Below, one piece after another: positions 29,500-55,440 of a stretch of DNA of 64,000 nt; positions within the stretch are counted from its first letter, which is position 1; each line of letters starts with the position of its first letter. The notes under the pieces were generated by a model. It was not told the DNA's origin. It saw nothing but the letters and a program-made list of their open reading frames with translations, and did no database searches. The stretch is taken from assembly GCF_009914755.1 (NCBI RefSeq), contig NC_060931.1; one strand, 5' to 3'. Source of the stretch: the human T2T-CHM13v2.0 reference genome, Homo sapiens. The translations under genes and the position numbers were made by a program.

Positions 29500-30140
29500 C
29501 AGGGCCTGAGGGAGCAGGGCAGCAAACGTTATCCAATCAGGACTGCTGGGCTGGGAACCGTCCAATCAGGCACGCAGCTGGAGCGGACAGGACGGCTTCC
29601 GGGATTTGGCGGGGCCTTTGTCTCTGGCTGCAGCCGGACCTCCTGCTCTCCTCCTCACTGCTCAGTGTCCTCTGCTCCTAGAGGCCCAGCCTCTGTGTCC
29701 CTGTGACCTGCAGATATTGGGAGATCCACAGCTAAGACGCCGGGACTCCCTGGAAACCTAGAAATGGTGAGAGTGCTGGGTCCGACATCCCGAGAGAGGG
29801 GGAGGGGCTGGTTGGAACCGATCGAAAGTGGCTGTGGCTGGACTCGGGCCTCCAAAGTCCGCGGCCCCAAGTTCTCCTTGGCGCAGCTCGGCCCTCAGTC
29901 CCCCGCGGCCCCGAGTTCTCCTTGGCGCAGCTCGGTCCTCAGTCCCCTTCAGCCGTAAGATGGCGGCTGGGCTGACAGCCGGGACCCTGGGCGTCCTGTC
30001 TCCTCCCTGCTCAGTGACTGTGCCCTGGCCTGGAGCCCTCTCCGGGCGGCTTTGCACCCGCAGCGCGGCATCTCTCCCCGATTGTGCAGGGATGCCGGGA
30101 GGGTCATCAGGGGAGAATCCTGACTCGGGATGCGGGGTTC
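29500..30140 (+). promoter_or_regulatory. CpG-rich promoter/first-exon region of the KRAB-ZNF gene
   Basis: Two CCAAT boxes (~29533 and ~29562), an ETS-like CTTCCGG (~29596), a GC box GGCGGGGC (~29608), and a YY1 motif AAGATGGCGGC at 29957-29967 in intron 1. Architecture is typical of ZNF91-family promoters. Confidence 0.8.
29764..29766 (+). CDS. ZNF107: KRAB-ZNF coding exon 1 (start codon only; 5'UTR from about 29600)
   Basis: ...GGAAACCTAGAAATG|GTGAGAG: ATG immediately followed by a GT donor, the standard ZNF91-family first exon; joins in frame to the KRAB-A exon. Confidence 0.85.
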
Positions 30141-41343: not shown

Positions 41344-42520
41344 GGATGTCCAGGAGTTCAAAAACATGTCCAGAGACCTGTCTGTTGTAGGAGAAAATAA
41401 AAATTAGAAATAAGAGGCTTTATTCTCCTATGTGAAAAATAAGGGAGGATATTTTGCTAATCTCTTTTTTCTTAAAGGATTTAAATTATACATAGATTTT
41501 TGTCTTTGTTGTTTTGAACGATACATAAATTATATTAACAGCTAAATAAATTTTTGGTCATTGTTCTTGATTTGGGATTGTCTTTATCTGAGACCTCAGG
41601 TTTATTGCTTTGTTTTTGCTTTGGCAAATTTTTTAAAATTTTTTAATCTTTTAAAGTAGACACAGATTTGTTTAAATCAAAACTCATTTTAAGAGCACAC
41701 AAAAGTTGAGCACAAAGATAGTATTAAATTTAGCAGTACTGAATAATGAGGACTAAAAAATGCTGAGTAAATTCCTTTGACAGAAAATGGATTATCCAAC
41801 GTAATTATCTAATATTTGCAGGCTAAAATACTTCCATTGCAAAAGCGAGGTTCAGTGTATGAACCGAACAGTGGAGTATGTAGTTGTTCTTTGGTTTCTA
41901 TTTATTACTTCAGAACAATTAGCATAGTTAGGTGTAGCATTTGTAGACAAACTGCATTCATATCAATTGAACAGTATTTTCTACACTAGTATAAATGTAA
42001 GGCCACAATATTTACTTTGAATGAATCCCTTAGTCATTTTAGTATTGTTATTCATACTTTCAAAACATAAAGTGTTTTAATTGAATTATGGTTACAGACA
42101 ATATTTTAAAATCCTACATACATTATGACTAGTACACTAAAATTATTTATACTTAGGTATTTTATCCAATGTGAAAGAAAATTTACTACCAAATTATTAT
42201 AGTAGATATTAGTATGATATGCTTACTAGTTTATTCAATAGAGATAATATTAGGGAAGCATGATTTTAGTGTCTTTTATTTCACTAAATTGGAATGCTGC
42301 TATTACAAGACAAATAAGGGTGATGTGGCCACTCAAAAACCATAATAGCTCTTCACTTAGCCATGATGCAAGCTCAAATATATTCCACTATATTAACAAA
42401 GTCATATTCCAATTGTTCATCAAAATGTTTTGGTGGAAATTGTCAGGCATATTCCAGTATAGATCTCCCATTCAATGGCTAGAAGATAAGAGAGCAGCAG
42501 AGATGAAAGAGGAACCTTAC

Positions 42521-42663
42521 TTTGTGTTATGGTGTAGTCTGGATTGAAGAGACAACCCAAGCAGGCTTTGTGTGAGCAGTGAGGCTATTTATTCACTTGG
42601 GTGCGAGCTCACACAAAGCCTGCTTGGGTTTTCTCTTCAATCCAGACTGTGCCATAACACACA
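42521..42663. repeat. Inverted repeat replacing the 5' LTR: antisense R/U5 (42521-42606) followed by sense U5 (42607-42663)
   Basis: Arms 42521-42577 and 42607-42663 are reverse complements with 5 mismatches in 57 nt. The loop is the reverse complement of the 3' LTR segment CACCCAAGTGAATAAA. Confidence 0.92.
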
Positions 42664-42665
42664 TT

Positions 42666-42683
42666 TGATGCTGAAATCCGGGA
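42666..42683 (+). other. Primer-binding site complementary to tRNA-Phe
   Basis: TGATGCTGAAATCCGGGA versus the Phe PBS TGGTGCCGAAACCCGGGA (15/18), 2 nt after the U5 terminal CA. Confidence 0.8.
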
Positions 42684-43075
42684 TAGGGGAACTCCTTTGG
42701 GAGTCGTGTCCCTTAACCCCTTCCCCCGACTTCTTGAAGAGACCCACCCGCGACCTCGGTACCTCGGACCAGCTCTGTAAAAGCCCCGCCTCTGCCTTCG
42801 GATAGGTAAGAGACCTCCATCCTTTCTCAAACTTTCCTTTTCTTAGAGAGGAGAGGACACTCACTGTCTGTGTTTCCTAAATCTAACATTGGTCATGGAT
42901 TATCTCTGGGAAGACAGGCTTCCCTAGGTGACTGGTCAACCACAGGGACATGTGCCTTGGCCACTCATCCACTGCACAACCCAGATGGGGACACCTGCTG
43001 AAGGTCCTTGTGGTTGCTCTCCTCCTCGTTTCTCTCTCCCTGTCTCTCTGTTTCTTCAGTCCTCCGCTGTTCATT

Positions 43076-44625
43076 ATGGGCACCCTTCCACCCTCCATTC
43101 CTCCTCCTTGTCCTTTGGACTGTGTCCTTAGGAATCTAAAACCGCTCCGTCTTTCACCTGATTTGGAACCTAAACATCTCATTTTCTTCTGTAATATGGC
43201 CTGGCCCCAATATAAATTAGACAGTGGCTCTCAGTGGCCAGAAAATGGCACTTTCAATTTCTCTATTTTGTGGGACTTAGACAACTTTTGTCACAAAATG
43301 GGCAAATGGTTTGAGGTTCCATACATCCAGGCATGTTTTACACTTCGGTCCCTCCCCAGCCCTTGTTCCCAATGCAATTTGTCTCAAATTCTCCTTCTGT
43401 CCCGCCCATCTGCTCCCCTACCACCCTCTGGCGACAGCGAGTCCTTCTTGTCCACAGACCCTTCCGATATTTCTCCTCCCTGCCCGTCCGACTCCGGTCC
43501 CAACCCTTCTCCAGACCCCAGTCCCCCTTCTACCCATACCATGCCTCCCTATATCCCTTCTGTCCCTACTCTGCCCCATACCCGAACTGGCTGACAATTT
43601 GGTCCCACTTCTAATCCCCCGCCTCCCACCCCACTATTTCCCCTTTGAGAGGTGGCTGGAGCTGAAGGGATAGTCCGAGTTCATGTTTCTTTCTCCCTGT
43701 CTGACCTGTCTCAGGTCAGCCAGTGTTTAGGTTCTTTTCCATAAGACTCCACTAAATATATCCAGGAATTTCAATATTTAACTCAGTCTTATAACCTCAC
43801 CTGGAGTGACTTAAATGTCATCCTCACTTCTACACTCACTCCTGAAGAATGGGAGGGTGTTTGGGCCCTAGCTCAGTCCTATGCAGGTGACCACTGGTGC
43901 CTTGAGCCAGGTCTCCAGGGAGGTCCCCCGTGAGGACCCCCAGTGGAACTATCAAACAGGATCTCCTGGTATGGCCGGGCGAGATTATATGATCACTTGC
44001 TTAGTAGAGGGACTCCAAAAAGCTGCGTATAAGGCTGTCAATTATGATAAGTTAAAAGAAATCACTCAGGGCAAGGACAAAAATCCAGCCCAGTTTGTGG
44101 CCCATCTGGCCATAAATCCAGCTTTAGACCCTGAAGGGCCAGGGGCCAGAAGGCCGACTCATGCATTTTATTACCCAGTCAGCTCCCGACATTAGAAAAA
44201 AACTTCAAAAATTAGAGTCTGGCCCTCAAACCCCACAACAGGATTTAATTAACCTTGCCTTTAAGGTGTTCAGTAACAGGGAAGAGGCTACCTGGTGGCA
44301 GCGTGTTTCTGAATTACAGATGCTTGCCTCCGCCGTAAGACGAACCCCAGCCACACCAATGGCCTGTAGGGATTTCAAGGCGTCCAGACCGCAGCGCCCA
44401 GCAGCCCCTCCAGGGCCATGCTTCAAGTGCCATAAAAATAGTCACTGGGCCAAGGAATGCCTGCAGCCTGGGGTTCCTCCTAAGCCATGCCCTGTTTGTG
44501 CAGGCCCTCACTGGAAGTCAGACTGTCCAACTCAAGCTGCCATCCCTAGAGCTCCTGGAGCTTAACCCCACAGCCCCCTGGCTGACTCCTTCTCTGATCT
44601 CCTCGGCTTGGCGGCTGAGGAATGA
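43076..44625 (+). pseudogene. ERV gag remnant
   Basis: Matrix (AWPQYKLD..WPENGTF), major-homology-like region (ITQGKDKNPAQF) and two NC knuckles ([27 protein letters not shown]); ends LGLAAEE-TGA at 44623-44625; multiple stops and frameshifts. Confidence 0.9.
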
Positions 44626-47600
44626 CACTGCCCGAACACCTCGGAGGCCCCATGGACCATCATGGACCTCGGGTAACTCTTAAGGTGGAGGGTAAGTCCA
44701 TCCCCTTTTTGATCGATATGGGGGCCACTCACTCCACCCTGCCCTCCTTTCAGGGACCTGTCTCCCTAGCCTCCATGACTGTTGTGGGAATTGACGGCAA
44801 AGCCTCCAGACCTCTCCAGACTCCACTTGTGTGTCAACTAGATCAGCACTCCTTTTTGCACTCCTTTTAGTCATCCCCACTTGTCCAGTCCCTCTCCTCG
44901 GCTGAGGCATCCTAACAAAACTGTCTGCCTCCCTCACTATTCCTAGGCTACAGCCACACCTCCTTGCCACCCTTCTCCCCAACCCTTCACCATCCCCACA
45001 AGCTCCTCTAACGTCTCCCTTCCTCAACCCCAGGGTCTGGGATATCATCTCTCCCTCCCTTGCTACAGATCACTCCCCCCTTATCATCCCTTTAAGGCCA
45101 AACCATCCTTACCCTGCCCAATGCCAGTATCCTATCCCTATGCCACCCCTAAAAGGCCTAAAGCCTTTTTACCCACTTTTTACAACATGGCCTCTTAGTA
45201 CCCATTAACTCTCCCATCCTTCCCTTTCAAAAACCAGACAAGTCCTACATATTAGTTCAAGACCTTCGTCTCATCAATCAGATTGTACTTTTCATCCATT
45301 CTATAGTGCCAAACCCATATACTCTCTTGTCCAGAATACCTCCCACCACTACCTATTATTCCGTTCTCAGCCTAAAAGATGCCTTCTACACCATTCCCCT
45401 ACATCCCTCCTCTCAACCTCTTTTTGCCTTCACCTGGACTGACGCTGACACCCATGAGTCCCAACAACTAACCTGGACCATTCTTCCCAGGGCTTCCGGA
45501 ATAGCCCTCATTATTTTAGCCAAGCCCTTGCCTGCGACCTACTCTCTTTTCAGCCTTCCTTTTCCTACCTCATCCAGTATGTCGATGATCTTCTCTGCAG
45601 TCTCTCCTAGGAATCCTCCCAACAGAATATCCTCCTACTCCTTCAGCATTTAGACTCTAAAGGGTACCGAATGTCCCCTTCTAAAGCTCAAATTTCTTCC
45701 CCTTCTGTTATTTATCTCAGCATAATTCTCCATCAGCACACCCGCACTCCCCCCGCTGACCGTATTCACCTAATCTCCTAGACCCCAGTCCCTTCAAAAA
45801 CAGCAGCTTCTCTCCTTCCTAGGCATCATTGGGTACTTCCACCTCTAGGTACCTGGTTTTGCCCTCTTAACAAAACCCCTTTATAAGCTTACAAAAGGCA
45901 ACCTAGCTGACCCCATAGACCCCAAACCTTCCCTCATTCATCCTTTCACTCCCTGAAAAAAGCTCTTGAGACAGCCTCCTCACTGGCGTTCCTCGACTCC
46001 ACCCAGCCCTTCTCTCTACATGGCAGAGGTAAAGGGATGTGCAGTTGGGGTCCTAACACAAGGGCCAGGCCCACGACCAGTGGCCTACTTATCTAAACTT
46101 GACCTCACAGTCCTAGGCTGGCTGCCCTGTTTACATGCTGCAGCGGCCACTGCCCTAATACTCCTAGAATCCCTCAAAATCACTGGTTACACCCCAGTTA
46201 CCCTCTATAGCGCTCACAACCTCCAGAGTCTCATTTCTTCCTCTCACCTCACACAACTACTCTCCTCCCATCTCCTCCAGCTTTATTCACTCTTTATTTT
46301 AAACCCCATGCTAACCATTGCTCTTGGACCCAGTTTCAACCCAGCCTTTCACTTAGCACCCAACACATGTCCTGAGCCACATGACTGCATCTCCTTAATA
46401 CACATGGCATCCTCCCCCTCTCCTCACATTTCTGTTTTTCCAGTCCCAAACCCAGATCACACTTGGTTTATTGATGGTAGTTCTTCAAGACCCAACCAAT
46501 TTTCGCCAGCCAAGGCAGGTTATGCTATTTGTTGTGTCCCACACATCTGTTATCGAGGCTGCTGCACTTCCACCCTCCACCACCTCTCAGCAAGCTGAAC
46601 TAATTGCTTTAACTCACGCTGTCTCTCTCTAAGGGAATGCACGTCAATATTTATACTGATTCCAGGTATGCTTTCCACATCCTTCATCACAGTGCTGCCA
46701 TCTGGGTGGAAAGAGGTTTTCTAACCACACAAGGGTCTTCCATTATCAATGCCTTTCTCATAAAGGCCCTCCTTAAGGCTGCTCTTCTGCCAGCCAAGGC
46801 TGGAGTTGTCCACTGCAGAGGATGCCAAAAACCAACAGACCCTATCACTAAAGGAAATGCCCATGCCAGTAAAACAGCAAAAGAGGTGGCAAACACCTCA
46901 GTGTCTGCAGACGTTCCAGTCTCTGCTCCAAAAGACCAGTATATTTCTTTCTCATCTATTATCCCTACCTACTACTCTTCTTCTGAAAACCTGCTCTGCT
47001 AGTCCTTTCCAACTCACAAGGCAAGTGGTTCTTAGATCATAGAAAGTTCCTTCTTCCTGCCTCACAAGCGCAATCTATTCTCTTATCCCTCCATGACCGC
47101 TTCCATGTAGGATACAAGCCTTTGGCTCGCCTCCTAGAGCCCCTTATTTCTTTCTCATCATGGAAGTCCGTCCTTAAACAATCACTTCTCAATGTTCTGT
47201 CTGCCACTCCAAGGTTTTCTTAGGCCCCCTCCTTCCCCAGCACATCAGGCCTGAGGGTTTACTACTACACAAGATTGGCAAATTGACTTCACTCATATGC
47301 CTCGTGTCAAAAAATATAAGTACCTCCTAGTTTGGGTTGATACCTTCACCAGATGGGTCGAGGCCTTCCCTACTGGATCTGAAAAGGCTGCAGCAGTTTT
47401 TACCTCTCTTCTAACAGATATTATTACCTGTTTCGGCCTCCCTACTTCCATCCAATCTGACAGTGGTCCAGCCTTCATTAGCCAAATCACCCAGGCAGTT
47501 TCCCAGGCCCTTGGCATCCAGTGGAATCTCCACACCCCATACCATCCTCATTCCTCAGGAAAGGTTGAAAGAGCCAACGGCCTCTTAAAAACTCACCCTC

Positions 47601-48081
47601 CAACTCCGAAAGGACTGGACTGTTCTCCTACCACTTGTGCTTCTCAGGATCTGAGCCACCGCCCATGAACCTACCAGGTATAGCCCATTCGAACTCTTAT
47701 ATGGTAGTACTTTTCTACTGGGGCCCAACCTCATCCCAGACACCAGTCCTCCAACAGGCTAGGAATGAAATCTGTCAGGCTGCTAACCTTCTTTTACCCA
47801 CCTCAGATACCCAGCCATATGAGGACACTCTGGCCAGACAGCCCATCCTGATAAAGAGCTTAACCCCCTGATCTCTACAACCTCAGTGGACAGGACCCTT
47901 CCTGGTCGTTTATGGTACCCCAATGGCTGTCTGCTTACAAGATCCTCCTCAGTGGATTCACCCTTCCAGAGTAAAGCTGTGTCCATCTGACACTCAGCCT
48001 GACCCTTCTTCCTCCTCTTGGAAGTCGCAAGTACTCTCCCCGACCTCGTTAAAACTCACCGAAATCCCTGAAGAAACTTAA
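44626..48081 (+). pseudogene. ERV pro-pol remnant (protease, RT, RNase H, integrase)
   Basis: FLIDMGATHS (DTG mutated to DMG), LKDAFYTIPL, QYVDD at ~45575, WFIDGSS, VNIYTDSRY, WVDTFTRWVEAFP, QSDSGPAF; many frameshifts. Confidence 0.92.
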
Positions 48082-49940
48082 ATGTCCTGCTCCTGTCCGC
48101 CCTGCTTCTTCACCCTCTTCCTCCACTCTATTTGCCAAGACATCTCCTGGTTTCATCCCCAAACTCCCACCTTAGATTCTCTCTTAAACTGGATAGATGA
48201 TCTCATCTTTTAGGGCACTCTGTATAACTTCTTCCCAGATGAGACGCCTCTGTTTACCTTCCTACTCACTCTTTATCTATCCCTCCTGCTCCTTTGGCTA
48301 CCTGGCATGGCCGCACTCCCACTTCCAGTAATGCCTAATTACCTCTACAAAACTCTCAACCCACTCTCTGTTAAACCAGTCCAACCCTTCTTTGGCAAAG
48401 GACGCTGGCTTTGCATTTCTCTATCAGCTACCACTTACGTTGCCACTCTCATTCCCACAAAAAACTGGGTAGTTACTAGCTTAACCTACCACCCTCGTAA
48501 TGAAGGAAAAAGCCCCTTCTAACTCCTACATATGCAGTCATTGGCCAACTTCTCCATCAATGAAATGACCGAAAATACCCTGACAGGTCGTGCAGTTCAA
48601 CTTTTACGCTCCTACATGTCCAGCCTCACCCATTACACAAGTAATGAAAAGCCCATACACGGCCCTGTGACTACAAACGCTGTCTTAACTTTCCAAGCCC
48701 CTTTATGCATCCAACACAACCTGTCATCAGGCCTACCTCTAGGTCACCTACTGTTCCATCAGTGCAACTACGCCTTGCAGCTTCAAGCCCCAACTGACTG
48801 TATTAACTTCCAGGTCTCCCAAACAGCTACATTCAAACAGCCTGTCCGCTTCTCAAAGCCCCCAGAAGTCATCAGCACCTCTCTGCTTAACAAACAATCC
48901 GGGTTTTGTAATGGCAGACATACGCACTGCATGACCATTCACCCCTGGACCTCCTGCAGCAGCACTCCCACCACTGACGAATGCCTCCTTATCCCCTCTT
49001 TCGATTACCCTTCTGAGTGGCTCCTAGTAGATACAAAATGATTTTTCCTCCAATGGGAAAATAAAACACAGGGAGCCACTCAGCTTATCCCAAACATCCC
49101 TTTTCAGCCGCTCACTGGGGCCGCCTTGGCAAGTACCCTAGGGGTGTGGGAAAATGAAAACAAATTCACACACCTTTTTAACATACACAGCCAGTTCTGC
49201 CTACCCAGCCAAGGCATATTCTTCTTGTGTGGAACTTCAACCTATGTCTGCCTCACCACTAACTGGACAAGCACCTGTACCCTAATCTTCCTAAGCCCCA
49301 AAATTGACATTGCCCCTGGAAACCAAACCTTACCAGTCCCTGTCAGAGCCCAAGTCCATCAGCATAGGGCTGTGCAGATAATACCCTTGCTTATAGGACT
49401 AGGAGTTACCAATGCCACAGGAACTGGAATAGCAGGTTTGTCCCCTTCCCTGTCCTACTATCATACACTCTCAAAGGATCTCTCAGACAGCCTACAAGAC
49501 ATAGCAAAATCCACCCTTACTCTCCAATCCCAAATAGACTCCTTAGCAGCAGTAACTCTGCAGAACCACCGTGGCTTAGACCTCCTAACTGTCGAAAAAG
49601 GTGGGCTATGCACCTTTTTAGGGGAAGATTGTTTTTCCACCAACCAGTCTGGACTAGTACGAGATGCTGCCTCGCAGTTAAATGAAAAGGCTTCTAAAAT
49701 CAGACAATGTCTTTCAGACTTTTAACACCAATCTTTGGAGCTGGGCGTTGTGGCTTCTCCCTATAGCTGGGCCCCTCATTTCCATCATTCTCCTTCTCCT
49801 ATTTGGACCCTGCCTCTTCCGTCTAGCCTCTCAGTTCCTACAAAATCTCATTCAAGCTATTACCAATCAATCTATGCGACAAATGCTACTCCTAACTGCC
49901 CCTCAATGTCACCCCCACCCCAAGATCTCTCTCCCAATTA
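48082..49940 (+). pseudogene. ERV env remnant (SU and TM)
   Basis: Fusion peptide AVQIIPLLIGLG, immunosuppressive domain LQNHRGLDLLTVEKGGLC, membrane anchor LISIILLLLFGPCLF; interrupted by stops and frameshifts. Confidence 0.9.
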
Positions 49941-50031
49941 GGAGTCCATGCCGCCCCAAGTCCCGCTCGAAGAATCCCTGAGAAACATCACCCCGTCCAC
50001 TTCTTTTCTTATTAAAACAAAAAGACAGGAA

Positions 50032-50405
50032 TGTCATATCCCACAAATATGGCTGCATTATTGCCAGCAGGCCATTATTGACGGTGGGCCATTAAGAACT
50101 CTGTGACCGGCACATATGCCTCCAGACTTCCTGGAACCAGAAAACCTGCAACAACCAAAAACCACAAAAGAAGAACAACGGGTTTCTGTTCCAACTGGGG
50201 TTGATCAACTTCTTGAGTCAACAAGTCCCAAAACCATGTTGTAATTTTCCACCCGCCACTTTGCCCTGTAAAGACTGCTCTCCCTCACACCTCCGGGCTG
50301 ACTCCCTTTTCCGATTCAGCCCACTAACACCCAAGTGAATAAACGGCCTTGTTGCTCACACAAAGTCTGCTTGGGTCTTCAATCCAGACCACGCTGTAAC
50401 ACACA
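50032..50405 (+). mobile_element. 3' LTR of the provirus
   Basis: Preceded by the PPT AAAAGACAGGAA; TG start at 50032; AATAAA at 50338-50343; ends ...TAACACACA like the 5' U5, followed by the TSD CTTAC. Confidence 0.9.
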
Positions 50406-51692
50406 CTTACAAAATTCTGCTGAGAATATGCCCCCCGTTATTCATAATGCTCATGTTTTTCATACTGAGGGTAGCTGTGCACTTTGGGTTTTTACAGAGA
50501 AATGTGTTTTAGGGGAAGTTTTTCTGGCTGACTTGTTCAATCATATCTAATCTGAGTTTTTTTCTTAAGATGCTTTTCTTTTTTTTTCCCTCTCAATATA
50601 ATCATTTTCAGAGTGAGCTGTTTTTCTCTTGAATGCATTGGGTGTCTGTTTTGGAAGCCCTATTACTATCCCATGGTGTCTGTTAATGAGGTGGGCTGTC
50701 ATAGTGAGAACTCTTGGAGCTATCTCTATATGGACTCATGCTGGAAATCCAGCAGAGTGATTTCCATGTCACCATTACAAATAAAAAACTGAGGCTTAAA
50801 CACTGCACCCATTCCCATTATTGTGAAGGTGCAATTCTACCCAGGAGGCCTGCAGGCTCTCCTCCTGCAACTCAGGCTTCATTCTCTGATGTGGCATTGA
50901 AGTGCTGCTGTGGCAGTTGGGGTTATATATAGGGTGCCAGGTGTGAGCTGTGTGCTGGGGGCTCTGCCTCAGTGGCAGATGGTAGGAGTCAAGAGAGGAC
51001 ACAAGCTACCAGGAGACGGCAAGCAGGAGGTACCTGGCTTTAAGTTGCAAAATTACCTTTTGTCATGAAGATGTGAAAAGTGTATTTTGTCATTGATTAT
51101 AACCAATTAGCATATATGGATGACCTCCCAAATTACCAGGTGAATTTATGATGAACTATGTATGACATGTGCTGTAAATTTTTCTACTTGTGGACTAATT
51201 ATTGTGACCGTCTTTCTGTCTTTGCAATCTCTTAAGCAGATTGACTGTGATGCATGTCACATTCTGGTTGAATTGTGTAATAAAACAGCTTTCTTTCTGT
51301 TCTATCATTGTGGAGTTACTCTGGAGCTGGAGAAAATTTTTCTTTTATTTATATTTTCCAAACACTGTCTAGAATTACCACACATGATATAAACATATAA
51401 GGTGCCAACCAAGCTTTAATCCAGAGGAGGCTTTTCCTTTCAGGCTTCCAGTCAACTCACAATTGTGCTGCAAAATGCATGCTGTCCCCTAAATATGCAG
51501 GCAGAATTGTGTCTCTGTCTATTTGGTGTTATAGTCCTCTACAGTCACCTCTAGAGAGCTAGGCCAGATTTCTACATACTTCACAGGGCAGCAGTTAACC
51601 ATTTTACCTCTTTCAATGACTCTTGTATCTTTAGACCAGAAACTGCTTCAGAGATCATGGGACCCAGAAACCCAGAGTAACGTGTGCCTTAA

Positions 51693-54665: not shown

Positions 54666-54887
<222 letters not shown>

Positions 54888-55305: not shown

Positions 55306-55440
<135 letters not shown>

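What the first reader, a model, noticed from the sequence alone, without database searches (positions are those of the whole stretch)
42521..42811. Hairpin-embedded splice acceptor plus viral donor: a possible ERV-derived switch that removes the KRAB domain from the host protein
Seen: in sense pre-mRNA the two arms pair at 55 of 57 positions. Three of the five DNA mismatches (GGTGTAGT versus ACTGTGCC) become G-U wobbles on this strand only. The right arm contains TTTTCTCTTCAATCCAG| (acceptor-like, ending 42645), and a strong donor GATAG|GTAAGA follows at 42805/42806. Splicing exon 1 to this 160-nt segment gives ATG-ACT-GTG-CCA-TAA, a 4-codon ORF. The next in-frame Met of the gene is residue 70 (MVAKPP, 55417), downstream of KRAB-A. 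Inference: inclusion would yield a zinc-finger protein lacking the TRIM28-recruiting domain, and folding or editing of the stem could gate inclusion. An ERV relic would then control the repressor status of a KRAB-ZNF.
Basis: partly seen in the sequence, partly recalled or inferred. Interest (0 to 1): 0.75.

Follow-up and report, generated by a model that had tools for sequence, protein, structure and literature searches.

The report
Retrovirus snap-back hairpin: annotated microRNA and exon
The hairpin and the 160-base segment are real but already annotated (microRNA MIR6839 and an alternative ZNF107 exon); what looks new is that the hairpin seems to be the fossil of a reverse-transcription accident at the front end of an old retrovirus copy.

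Summary
The arms pair at 55 of 57 positions on the + strand. The AG acceptor is at 42645/6 and the GT donor at 42805/6. Joining exon 1 to the segment gives ATG+ACT GTG CCA TAA, and Met70 is at 55417. None of this is new as an object. The hairpin is MIR6839, whose 3p end is the acceptor AG, and 42646-42805 is a RefSeq ZNF107 exon.

The "ERV relic" is a broken gammaretrovirus-like (HERV-H/F-type) provirus at 42521-50405, flanked by a 5-bp duplication (CTTAC). It has no 5' LTR. Its left end is an inverted copy of R-U5, followed by the last 57 nt of U5, the primer-binding site, the leader and the family's conserved splice donor.

Three other human loci carry the same architecture, turning exactly at the first 24 nt of R. 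I read this as self-primed minus-strand strong-stop DNA that was integrated.

The KRAB-switch idea is only partly supported. Inclusion does close the KRAB reading frame, and Met70 would give a 783-aa finger-only protein. But six upstream AUGs precede Met70, the stop codon invites NMD, and the stem shows no more conservation than neutral copies. Gating by folding or editing remains untested.

The parts
42516..42520 (+). Left copy of the 5-bp target-site duplication (CTTAC)
   Evidence: Paralogous empty sites L002, L006 and L009 run straight from ...AACCTTA into the sequence that follows 50405 in the window.
42521..50405 (+). Degenerate gammaretrovirus-like (HERV-H/F-type) provirus lacking a normal 5' LTR, in sense orientation in a ZNF107 intron
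   Evidence: The insertion is absent from paralogous units. Of 14 stop-to-stop frames scanned, 8 hit Pfam retroviral families; those above cut-off are Gag_p30, RNase_H, rve and TLV_coat. PMC8147956 lists a RetroTector 'HERVH' provirus, intronic/exonic in ZNF107.
42521..42606 (+). Inverted copy of the end of R plus U5 (left arm and loop), starting at the exact U5 terminus
   Evidence: Its reverse complement aligns with the 3' LTR end, 66 matches and 10 mismatches, including the AATAAA region. It aligns with the left arms of three other snap-back loci.
42521..42577 (+). Left arm of the stem (holds the annotated miR-6839-5p, 42538-42559)
   Evidence: PMC10379226 places miR-6839-5p in a 63-bp LTR7C fragment.
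42578..42606 (+). Loop: the inner part of the inverted copy, whose partner is missing from the direct arm
   Evidence: A 60-column gap in the window row of alignment A3, relative to the symmetric palindromes.
42607..42663 (+). Right arm: the last 57 nt of the LTR in direct orientation (end of R plus U5); holds miR-6839-3p (42624-42645), the polypyrimidine tract, the AG and the first 18 nt of the exon
42533..42645 (+). MIR6839 precursor as annotated; its 3' end is the last base of the intron
   Evidence: Hub annotation. The exon starts at 42646 behind CCAG. hsa-mir-6839 is counted among mirtron samples in PMC12204755.
42629..42645 (+). Polypyrimidine tract and AG acceptor, inside the stem
   Evidence: pairing probability about 1.
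42646..42805 (+). 160-nt alternative ZNF107 exon: U5 tail, primer-binding site and leader up to the viral splice donor
   Evidence: Hub RefSeq table; canonical AG| and |GT; alignment with family members.
42646..42657 (+). ACT GTG CCA TAA: closes the ZNF107 reading frame after the ATG of exon 1
42666..42683 (+). Decayed primer-binding site, 2 nt after the LTR end
   Evidence: It aligns with the primer-binding sites of the chr5, chr2 and chr1 relatives. Its assignment to the tRNA-Phe type is recalled, not tested.
42668..42805 (+). Second upstream ORF (45 codons plus stop); the ATG lies inside the primer-binding site and the TAG is the last three bases of the exon
42806..42811 (+). GTAAGA: intron side of the donor, homologous to the family's leader splice donor
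   Evidence: GGTAAG is kept at the same alignment column in 3 of 4 rows of A2; the chr2 copy has GTTAAG.
50032..50405 (+). 3' LTR (the only complete LTR)
   Evidence: A purine-rich tract is followed by TGTCAT..., and the LTR ends ...ACACACA next to the duplication. Only its R/U5 part is shared with many genomic LTRs.
50406..50410 (+). Right copy of the target-site duplication (CTTAC)
29764..29766 (+). ZNF107 start codon, the last 3 nt of exon 1
   Evidence: Hub table.
54723..54849 (+). KRAB-A exon
   Evidence: Pfam KRAB 84.6 bits.
55417..55419 (+). Met70 AUG, context GAGATGG

Best explanation
The stem-loop at 42521-42663 is the annotated microRNA gene MIR6839, and 42646-42805 is an annotated alternative exon of ZNF107. 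Both are made from the abnormal front end of one retroviral insertion (42521-50405).

That provirus never had a normal 5' LTR. Its left end is an inverted copy of R-U5 joined to a direct U5 tail, then the primer-binding site, leader, gag, pol, env and a normal 3' LTR. The whole element lies inside a 5-bp target duplication. I infer that the minus-strand strong-stop DNA primed on itself through a small hairpin at the very start of R. It was copied back through U5 and the primer-binding site, took the place of the plus-strand strong-stop DNA, and gave a linear DNA with a U5 end on both sides, which integrase inserted. In the ZNF107 copy a later loss of about 60 nt at the centre left a 57-bp stem with a 29-nt loop (alternatively, the turn itself was off-centre).

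In ZNF107 pre-mRNA the U5 tail offers a polypyrimidine tract and AG, and the viral leader offers its splice donor, so a 160-nt exon can be included. When that acceptor is used, the excised intron ends in the hairpin. After debranching and trimming of the 5' tail it is a Dicer substrate (a 5'-tailed mirtron).

The mRNA then stops after four codons. It becomes a transcript with a long, AUG-rich leader that is probably unstable and can at best make a little of the 783-aa KRAB-less protein from Met70. The stem hides the acceptor, so inclusion is probably infrequent.

Shown here: the anatomy, the duplication, the family relations, the reading-frame consequences and the predicted pairing. Inferred: the reverse-transcription route, mirtron processing, low inclusion and decay.
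For: Identity:
- The hub table gives MIR6839 at 42533-42645, with its 3p at 42624-42645, and the exon at 42646-42805. Both splice sites are canonical.
- After removal of the exon, the stem that remains is 42539-42577 with 42607-42645. The annotated 5p starts at 42538, exactly at the new stem base (pairing rule).
- PMC12204755 counts hsa-mir-6839 as a mirtron sample. PMC10379226 maps miR-6839-5p to a 63-bp LTR7C piece.

Provirus:
- Empty paralogous sites and the CTTAC duplication.
- gag, pol and env Pfam hits in 8 of 14 frames.
- PMC8147956 lists it as HERVH in ZNF107.

Snap-back end:
- The reverse complement of the left segment aligns with the 3' LTR end from the AATAAA region to the last base.
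- Whole-genome pattern scans find the same inverted-then-direct R-U5 at 4 loci (this one plus chr1, chr2 and chr3), with 0 hits for the reversed control pattern.
- The three others have 93-95-nt arms (chr1 in two pieces), 6-8 nt apart. In each, the primer-binding site follows the direct arm.
- Target duplications match 5 of 5 (chr1, GTGAT) and 4 of 5 (chr2).
- The palindrome centre is the first 24 nt of R. Two of two L1-type processed HERV-H retrocopies, with poly(A) and their own duplications, start at that same nucleotide.
- The window copy aligns to the three with one 60-column gap.

Consequences:
- MTVP-stop; 852-aa versus 783-aa proteins; six upstream AUGs; acceptor pairing probability about 1.
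- Self-priming of minus-strand strong-stop DNA through the R hairpin is described for HIV-1 (passage in PMC4668388).
Against: - No expression, small-RNA or junction data could be seen here.
- The mirtron label rests on annotation coordinates and one machine-learning data set.
- The intron in front of the hairpin is about 10-13 kb, very long for a mirtron tail.
- A stem of -101.7 kcal/mol should strongly hinder use of the acceptor, yet the exon and the 3p end say it is used.
- The annotated 5p/3p pair has no clean 2-nt overhangs.
- In the chr1 locus the 24-nt centre is in plus sense, which the simple self-priming scheme does not predict.
- The chr3 locus shows no direct 3' LTR within 10 kb, so no duplication could be checked there.
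- The window copy lacks the diagnostic centre, so an off-centre template switch or a later genomic rearrangement cannot be excluded for it.
- The genome scans score only the best candidates, so counts are lower bounds.
Confidence: 0.75

Rival explanations
1. One reading: the stem is a regulated gate. When it is unfolded or edited, the ERV exon is included, the KRAB reading frame is closed, and ribosomes start at Met70. ZNF107 then switches from a TRIM28-recruiting repressor to a finger-only protein.
For: The exon is annotated and closes the frame after 4 codons. Met70 is the only other Met in the first 75 residues and has a good context, GAGATGG. The Met70 product is 783 aa and lacks the Pfam KRAB exon. 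The acceptor is fully sequestered in the predicted ensemble. From recall only: 783 aa is the length first published for this protein.
Against: Six AUGs, including a 45-codon uORF and one overlapping the Met70 AUG, stand in front. The early stop lies upstream of at least two exon junctions, which favours NMD. Arm divergence is not lower than divergence from the 3' LTR copy. The G-U pattern fits CpG decay and has a 1 in 8 chance. No data on regulated inclusion were available, and no paper in the library links miR-6839 with ZNF107 splicing.
Confidence: 0.1
2. MIR6839 is a Drosha-cut, splice-site-overlapping pri-miRNA rather than a mirtron. Microprocessor cleavage of the 57-bp stem competes with, or destroys, transcripts that would use the acceptor.
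For: In unspliced RNA the stem runs 18 bp past the 3p end into the exon, so a basal stem exists for Microprocessor. In PMC12204755 a classifier placed hsa-mir-6839 in the region dense in canonical miRNAs.
Against: The 3p end coincides with the intron's last base, and the 5p start with the base of the stem left after exon removal. A cut about 11 bp above the basal junction (textbook rule, recalled) would fall near 42650-42652, not at 42645.
Confidence: 0.12
3. The inverted repeat arose after a normal integration, by a genomic rearrangement (fold-back repair or replication template switch) that replaced most of the 5' LTR.
For: The window copy lacks the R-hairpin centre and is asymmetric: 86 nt inverted versus 57 nt direct.
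Against: The inverted copy begins at the exact U5 terminus directly beside the target duplication. Three independent loci on other chromosomes share the architecture, two of them with checked duplications.
Confidence: 0.1

Closest known systems
5'-tailed mirtrons (Ladewig et al. 2012, PMC3431481: abstract and passages seen)
   Same: The hairpin lies at the 3' end of an intron, and the 3p arm ends on the acceptor AG. A single-stranded 5' tail has to be removed before Dicer can act.
   Different: The stem continues 18 bp into the downstream exon. The post-splicing stem is about 39 bp with a 29-nt loop. The tail is 10-13 kb, and the intron is alternatively used. Dependence on splicing and independence from Drosha were not tested here.
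Splice-site-overlapping pri-miRNAs (recalled from the literature; no paper read here)
   Same: The hairpin spans a splice site, so folding or cleavage and splicing exclude each other on one molecule.
   Different: In those cases Drosha defines the ends. Here the annotated ends fit splicing.
MicroRNA hairpins born from transposon inverted repeats (for example the MITE-derived mir-548 family, recalled), and the list of HERV-derived miRNAs in PMC10379226 (passages seen)
   Same: A ready-made long inverted repeat of mobile-element origin becomes a Dicer substrate. miR-6839-5p is already on the HERV list.
   Different: The repeat here is not part of the element's normal structure, nor two neighbouring insertions. 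It appears to be a one-off product of faulty reverse transcription.
TAR-dependent self-priming of HIV-1 minus-strand strong-stop DNA (Guo et al. 1997, seen only as a reference; described in a passage of PMC4668388)
   Same: A hairpin at the 5' end of R lets the 3' end of strong-stop DNA fold back and be extended on itself.
   Different: It is described there as an abortive product. Here the product seems to have been completed, integrated with a target duplication and fixed in the germ line, at four or more HERV-H/F-type loci.
Exonised ERV leaders and 'poison' or uORF-bearing 5' exons; KRAB-less isoforms of KRAB zinc-finger genes (general knowledge, recalled)
   Same: The viral splice donor is used by a host gene, and the alternative 5' exon closes the main reading frame.
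   Different: The acceptor of this exon lies inside a 57-bp stem that is also a microRNA precursor.

Membership tests
5'-tailed mirtron | The 3' end of the hairpin and 3p species is the intron's terminal AG | tested here: met
   The annotated 3p is 42624-42645 and the annotated exon starts at 42646 behind CCAG (hub table).
5'-tailed mirtron | The hairpin is preceded by an intronic tail, and the 5p start is not set by splicing | tested here: met
   Upstream donors lie at 29766 or 32649, giving a tail of 10-13 kb. The 5p starts at 42538, at the base of the stem left after exon removal.
5'-tailed mirtron | Production needs splicing, debranching and Dicer, but not Drosha or DGCR8 | not testable with these tools
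   No small-RNA data were available.
Rfam microRNA families | Score at or above the family's gathering threshold | tested here: not met
   The best of 3 matches is plant MIR6457, 64.9 bits against a gathering score of 140. It is a generic long-hairpin match.
Gammaretrovirus-like ERV (HERV-H/F group) provirus | gag, pol and env remnants in order on one strand | tested here: met
   Gag_MA, Gag_p30, zf-CCHC_5, RVT_1, RNase_H, rve and TLV_coat appear in that order. 8 of 14 frames hit; Gag_p30, RNase_H, rve and TLV_coat are above the Pfam cut-off.
Gammaretrovirus-like ERV (HERV-H/F group) provirus | Two LTRs in direct orientation | tested here: not met
   Only the 3' LTR is complete. The 5' end holds 57 nt of direct LTR behind an inverted R-U5 copy.
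Gammaretrovirus-like ERV (HERV-H/F group) provirus | Short target-site duplication and a primer-binding site 2 nt after U5 | tested here: met
   CTTAC on both sides. The primer-binding site aligns with relatives. The tRNA type was not tested.
Integrated self-primed minus-strand strong-stop DNA ('snap-back' 5' end) | The inverted copy starts at the exact U5 terminus next to the duplication, and the direct copy runs on into the primer-binding site | tested here: met
   The same holds at the chr1 and chr2 loci.
Integrated self-primed minus-strand strong-stop DNA ('snap-back' 5' end) | The turn lies at the 5' end of R, that is at the 3' end of full-length strong-stop DNA | tested here: inconclusive
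   Met at the chr1, chr2 and chr3 loci; the R start was defined by 2 of 2 processed retrocopies. In the window copy this part is missing, seen as a 60-column gap.
Integrated self-primed minus-strand strong-stop DNA ('snap-back' 5' end) | The centre is in minus sense on the proviral plus strand | tested here: inconclusive
   It is in minus sense at chr2 and chr3 and in plus sense at chr1.
KRAB zinc-finger gene | A KRAB-A box and a C2H2 finger array in one reading frame | tested here: met
   KRAB scores 84.6 bits. The spliced ORF is 852 aa with 16 strict C2H2 motif matches.
NMD-prone 'poison' exon | A stop codon more than about 50 nt upstream of a later exon junction | tested here: met
   The TAA at 42655-42657 lies 148 nt before the 42805 junction, with further junctions downstream. 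Actual decay is not testable here.

The most novel reading that the evidence does not exclude
A reverse-transcription accident (self-primed strong-stop DNA rescued into a provirus with U5 ends on both sides) handed a young KRAB zinc-finger gene three things in a single step: a Dicer-substrate hairpin, an exon, and a structure-masked acceptor. The cell now uses that stem (through helicases, ADAR editing of the AG, or Microprocessor) to choose between the KRAB-ZNF107 repressor and miR-6839 plus a KRAB-less ZNF107.
Probability: 0.08. Interest if true: 0.75.

Novelty: new variant of a known kind. Interest (0 to 1): 0.42.

Why it matters
As a locus this is ordinary. The microRNA, the exon and the provirus are all in public annotation or print, so the finding does not open a new system.

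Two points have some value.

First, the hairpin's origin. Four human HERV-H/F-type insertions carry an inverted R-U5 in place of a 5' LTR, turning at the first nucleotides of R and bounded by target duplications where checked. They look like germ-line fossils of a side reaction (strong-stop DNA self-priming) that is otherwise known as an abortive product in HIV-1 work. That would show such products can be completed and integrated. It also offers a one-step route from retrovirus to microRNA hairpin.

Second, the locus is a compact natural test case for how a splice acceptor buried in a 57-bp stem gets used at all, and for whether a KRAB zinc-finger gene's repressor status can be set by an ERV-derived exon.

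Tried and rejected
- Rfam scan of 41500-44500: only sub-threshold matches, not informative.
- Earlier findings of this scan were not open.
- Supplements of Ladewig et al. were closed, so the original read evidence and class label for hsa-mir-6839 were not seen.
- Paper searches for 'mirtron'+'ZNF107' found 0 papers. 'ZFD25' found 5 papers, none of whose listed titles or abstracts is about the gene's structure (listing only). 'ZNF107'+'KRAB'+'isoform' found 4 papers; I opened one, which only cites the protein accession, and the other three were seen as listing only. 'mir-6839'+'splice' found 6 papers, none on ZNF107 splicing judging by the listing.
- So the statement that the 783-aa KRAB-less protein is the originally published form rests on recall only.
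- Searches for the snap-back idea: 'self-priming'+'strong-stop'+'endogenous retrovirus' found 1 review that only cites Guo 1997. 'HERV-H'+'strong-stop' found 1 review (listing only). A 4-of-5-term search found 7 papers, all on HIV-1 or LTR structure judging by their listings.
The BNIP3P11 label is the hub's.
- A second, stricter pattern found only the chr2 locus. A looser one added 5 loci that are ordinary LTRs or unrelated sequence.
- Two chr8 hits of the centre pattern were not palindromes. They turned out to be processed retrocopies.
- I considered selection for + strand pairing (the G-U wobbles) and rejected it as unsupported.
- I considered an inversion of a whole 5' LTR and rejected it, because that would not duplicate the U5 tail.
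- No primate genomes were on hand, so the insertion could not be dated by orthology.
Full report
**1. The observation**

- The repeat finder reports one inverted repeat in 42300-43000. Its arms are 42523-42577 and 42607-42661, 55 nt, 93% complementary, 29 nt apart.
On the - strand there are 52 pairs and 5 mismatches.
- The + strand RNA folds to -101.7 kcal/mol, z -13.75, with 0 of 200 shuffles as good. The - strand folds to -95.1 kcal/mol, z -14.29.
- In a 600-nt context the stem pairs keep probabilities near 1. The polypyrimidine tract and AG are paired at 16 of 17 positions.
- The acceptor (CCAG|ACTGTG, 42645/6) and the donor (GGATAG|GTAAGA, 42805/6) are present.
- The start codon is the last three bases of exon 1, and joining it to 42646 gives M-T-V-P-stop.
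- Met70 at 55417 is the only other Met in the first 75 residues.

**2. What is already annotated**

The hub's RefSeq table lists MIR6839 at 42533-42645, with mature arms 42538-42559 and 42624-42645. It also lists an exon 42646-42805 among the ZNF107 transcripts.

The 3p arm therefore ends on the last base of the intron. After the exon is removed, the remaining stem is 42539-42577 with 42607-42645, and the annotated 5p begins at 42538, at the foot of that stem. This geometry is that of a 5'-tailed mirtron.

Literature seen:
- Ladewig et al. 2012 describe the 5'-tailed mirtron class (PMC3431481, abstract and passages).
- PMC12204755 counts hsa-mir-6839 among its mirtron samples. It notes that a classifier placed it among canonical miRNAs (passage).
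- PMC10379226 maps miR-6839-5p to a 63-bp LTR7C fragment (passages and table).
- PMC8147956 lists a RetroTector provirus labelled 'HERVH, intronic/exonic, ZNF107 +'. By the offset taken from the miRNA coordinates, this corresponds to about 43464-50030 of the window. That mapping is an inference and assumes the two assemblies are collinear here.

**3. The provirus**

The 120 nt left of the hairpin match at least 35 other places in the same genome, mostly in the chr19 zinc-finger clusters. All of these matches stop at window 42519-42521.

Three such paralogous units (L002, L006, L009) continue without a break into the sequence that follows 50405 in the window. The junctions show CTTAC on both sides. 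So 42521-50405 is one insertion with a 5-bp target duplication.

Of 14 stop-to-stop frames scanned, 8 hit retroviral Pfam families in the order gag (MA, p30, zinc knuckle), RT, RNase H, integrase, env. The frames are broken by many stops. A 374-bp 3' LTR ends the element. Only its R/U5 part is shared with many other genomic LTRs.

**4. The front end is abnormal**

There is no U3 and almost no R upstream of the primer-binding site.
- The last 57 nt of the LTR (42607-42663) are present in direct orientation.
- They are preceded by the reverse complement of the last 86 or so nt of the LTR (42521-42606), beginning with the exact U5 terminus next to the duplication.
- Alignment with relatives on chr5, chr2 and chr19 shows that their U5 is preceded by normal R sequence.
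- The same alignment puts the window's donor at the family's conserved leader donor. GGTAAG is kept in 3 of 4 rows, and one relative has GTTAAG.

The exon is U5 tail + primer-binding site + leader.

**5. A small class of such ends**

A whole-genome pattern (inverted U5 core, a gap, direct U5 core, up to 2 mismatches) finds 4 loci, with 0 for the reversed control. The 4 are this one plus sites on chr1, chr2 and chr3. A looser pattern finds the same 4, plus 5 loci that are ordinary LTRs or unrelated sequence.

The three other loci share these features:
- They are near-symmetric palindromes with 93-95-nt arms, 6-8 nt apart (chr1 in two pieces).
- Each is followed by a primer-binding site and, at chr1 and chr3, by leader (the chr1 stretch read also shows the splice donor); at chr2 the sequence right after the primer-binding site no longer matches the leader.
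- The chr1 element has a 5 of 5 target duplication (GTGAT). The chr2 element has 4 of 5.
- The chr3 element shows no direct 3' LTR within 10 kb and could not be checked.

The turning point is the same in all three: a small inverted repeat of 8+8 nt with an 8-nt loop.

Two chr8 hits of a centre pattern were not palindromes. They are HERV-H copies that start at exactly this small repeat, end in poly(A) after the LTR's AATAAA, and carry their own long target duplications. In other words they are processed retrocopies of the viral RNA. Two of two thus place the first nucleotide of R at the start of the small repeat.

The palindromes therefore turn at the 3' end of full-length minus-strand strong-stop DNA.

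**6. Inferred route**

The strong-stop DNA folds back on the terminal R hairpin and is extended on itself through U5 and the tRNA's 18 nt. That product has a primer-binding-site copy at its 3' end and can stand in for plus-strand strong-stop DNA. The finished linear DNA has a U5 end on both sides and is inserted by integrase.

Self-priming of this kind is described for HIV-1 as an abortive reaction (passage in PMC4668388; Guo et al. 1997 seen only as a reference).

Two results do not fit cleanly:
- The chr1 centre is in plus sense, whereas the scheme predicts minus sense, as seen at chr2 and chr3.
- The window copy lacks the centre altogether. Against the three others it shows one 60-column gap, which removes the small repeat and the R part of the direct arm, including its AATAAA.

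A later central deletion, or an off-centre switch, would explain the second point; I cannot tell which. I found no paper describing such ends in ERVs, within the limits of the library.

**7. Consequences for ZNF107**

With the obvious acceptor of the last exon (outside the window), the selected transcript encodes 852 aa. A start at Met70 gives 783 aa. The exon 54723-54848 is a Pfam KRAB box (84.6 bits), and the next exon has no Pfam hit.

However, in exon 1 + ERV exon + KRAB exons, six AUGs come before the Met70 AUG. They open ORFs of 4, 45, 3, 10, 3 and 3 codons. The 45-codon ORF starts inside the primer-binding site and ends on the last three bases of the exon. The last one overlaps the Met70 AUG. 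The early stop also lies upstream of several exon junctions. A weakly translated, decay-prone mRNA is therefore the more economical expectation.

That 783 aa is the length first reported for this protein is my recollection only; the searches did not retrieve the paper.

**8. Is the stem under selection?**

All differences among the three copies of the U5 tail are transitions, apart from one transversion between the arms.
- The arms differ at 4 of 55 positions.
- The right arm differs from the 3' LTR at 6 of 52.
- The left segment differs from the 3' LTR at 10 of 76.

These rates are not distinguishable (Fisher p 0.44 and 0.52).

Two of the three G-U positions fall in a dinucleotide that reads CG in the 3' LTR copy, TG in the right arm and CA in the complement of the left arm. 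That is the usual CpG-decay pattern. Three transitions all giving G-U on the + strand has a prior chance of 1 in 8.

So nothing here argues that the stem has been kept for a gating role. Nothing excludes it either.

**9. Verdict**

The ERV origin and the viral donor are confirmed and refined. The switch hypothesis stays a minority reading. The added result is the snap-back origin and its three sister loci.

No expression data, primate genomes or paper supplements were available, and these would decide the open points.

Noticed in passing
L039/L046 (G000:C1:53315037-53317416 approx.), L038/L047 (G000:C2:157793976-157798589 approx.), L036/L048 (G000:C3, terminus near 90149651, provirus on - strand): Three further HERV-H/F-type elements whose 5' LTR is replaced by a near-symmetric inverted R-U5 palindrome with 93-95-nt arms. 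Target duplications are GTGAT (5 of 5) at chr1 and GTAAA/GTAAT (4 of 5) at chr2. Each would fold into a hairpin of about 95 bp if transcribed. I did not check whether any is annotated as a small-RNA gene.
   Followed up: partly
L046 / L039 1540-1565 (chr1 locus): The 24-nt centre of this palindrome is in plus sense, opposite to the chr2 and chr3 loci and to what simple self-priming predicts. A flip by recombination between the arms is one possibility; it remains unexplained.
   Followed up: no
L048 (reverse complement) 1588-1720: About 1.5 kb inside the chr3 snap-back element lies another LTR in the opposite orientation, and no direct 3' LTR is seen within 10 kb. The element may be rearranged or nested.
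   Followed up: no
L058 (G000:C8:116942190-116946650 approx.) and L059 (G000:C8:93073414-93077820 approx.): Two HERV-H copies start at the first nucleotide of R and end in poly(A) a few bases after GCTCA(CA), flanked by long duplications (for example AAGAATCGAATGG). These are L1-type processed retrocopies of HERV-H RNA. They give R as about 66-69 nt.
   Followed up: partly
window 42092-42519 and 50406-51029: The provirus splits an older unit of about 3 kb (the hub calls it BNIP3P11, - strand). This unit has at least 35 copies at 76-86% identity, mostly in the chr19 zinc-finger clusters, and one 46 kb upstream on chr7. It evidently spread with the zinc-finger gene duplications. A Pfam check of BNIP3 likeness failed on stop codons.
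   Followed up: partly
window 44504, 47418, 47559, 47807 (acceptors); 44691, 47677, 54000 (donors): Other annotated ZNF107 exons lie inside or span the provirus and use canonical AG and GT sites. The acceptors at 47418-47807 sit between integrase and env, where a retroviral env acceptor is expected. The exon 42812-44691 does not start behind an AG and looks like a transcript start or a truncated cDNA.
   Followed up: no
window 42668-42670: The AUG of the 45-codon upstream ORF lies inside the decayed primer-binding site, at a position where the chr5, chr2 and chr19 relatives read TGGTGC instead of TGATGC.
   Followed up: no
window 42521-42663: The best Rfam match is a plant family (MIR6457), at 64.9 bits against a gathering score of 140. 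It is an example of a long perfect hairpin drawing a spurious family match.
   Followed up: yes
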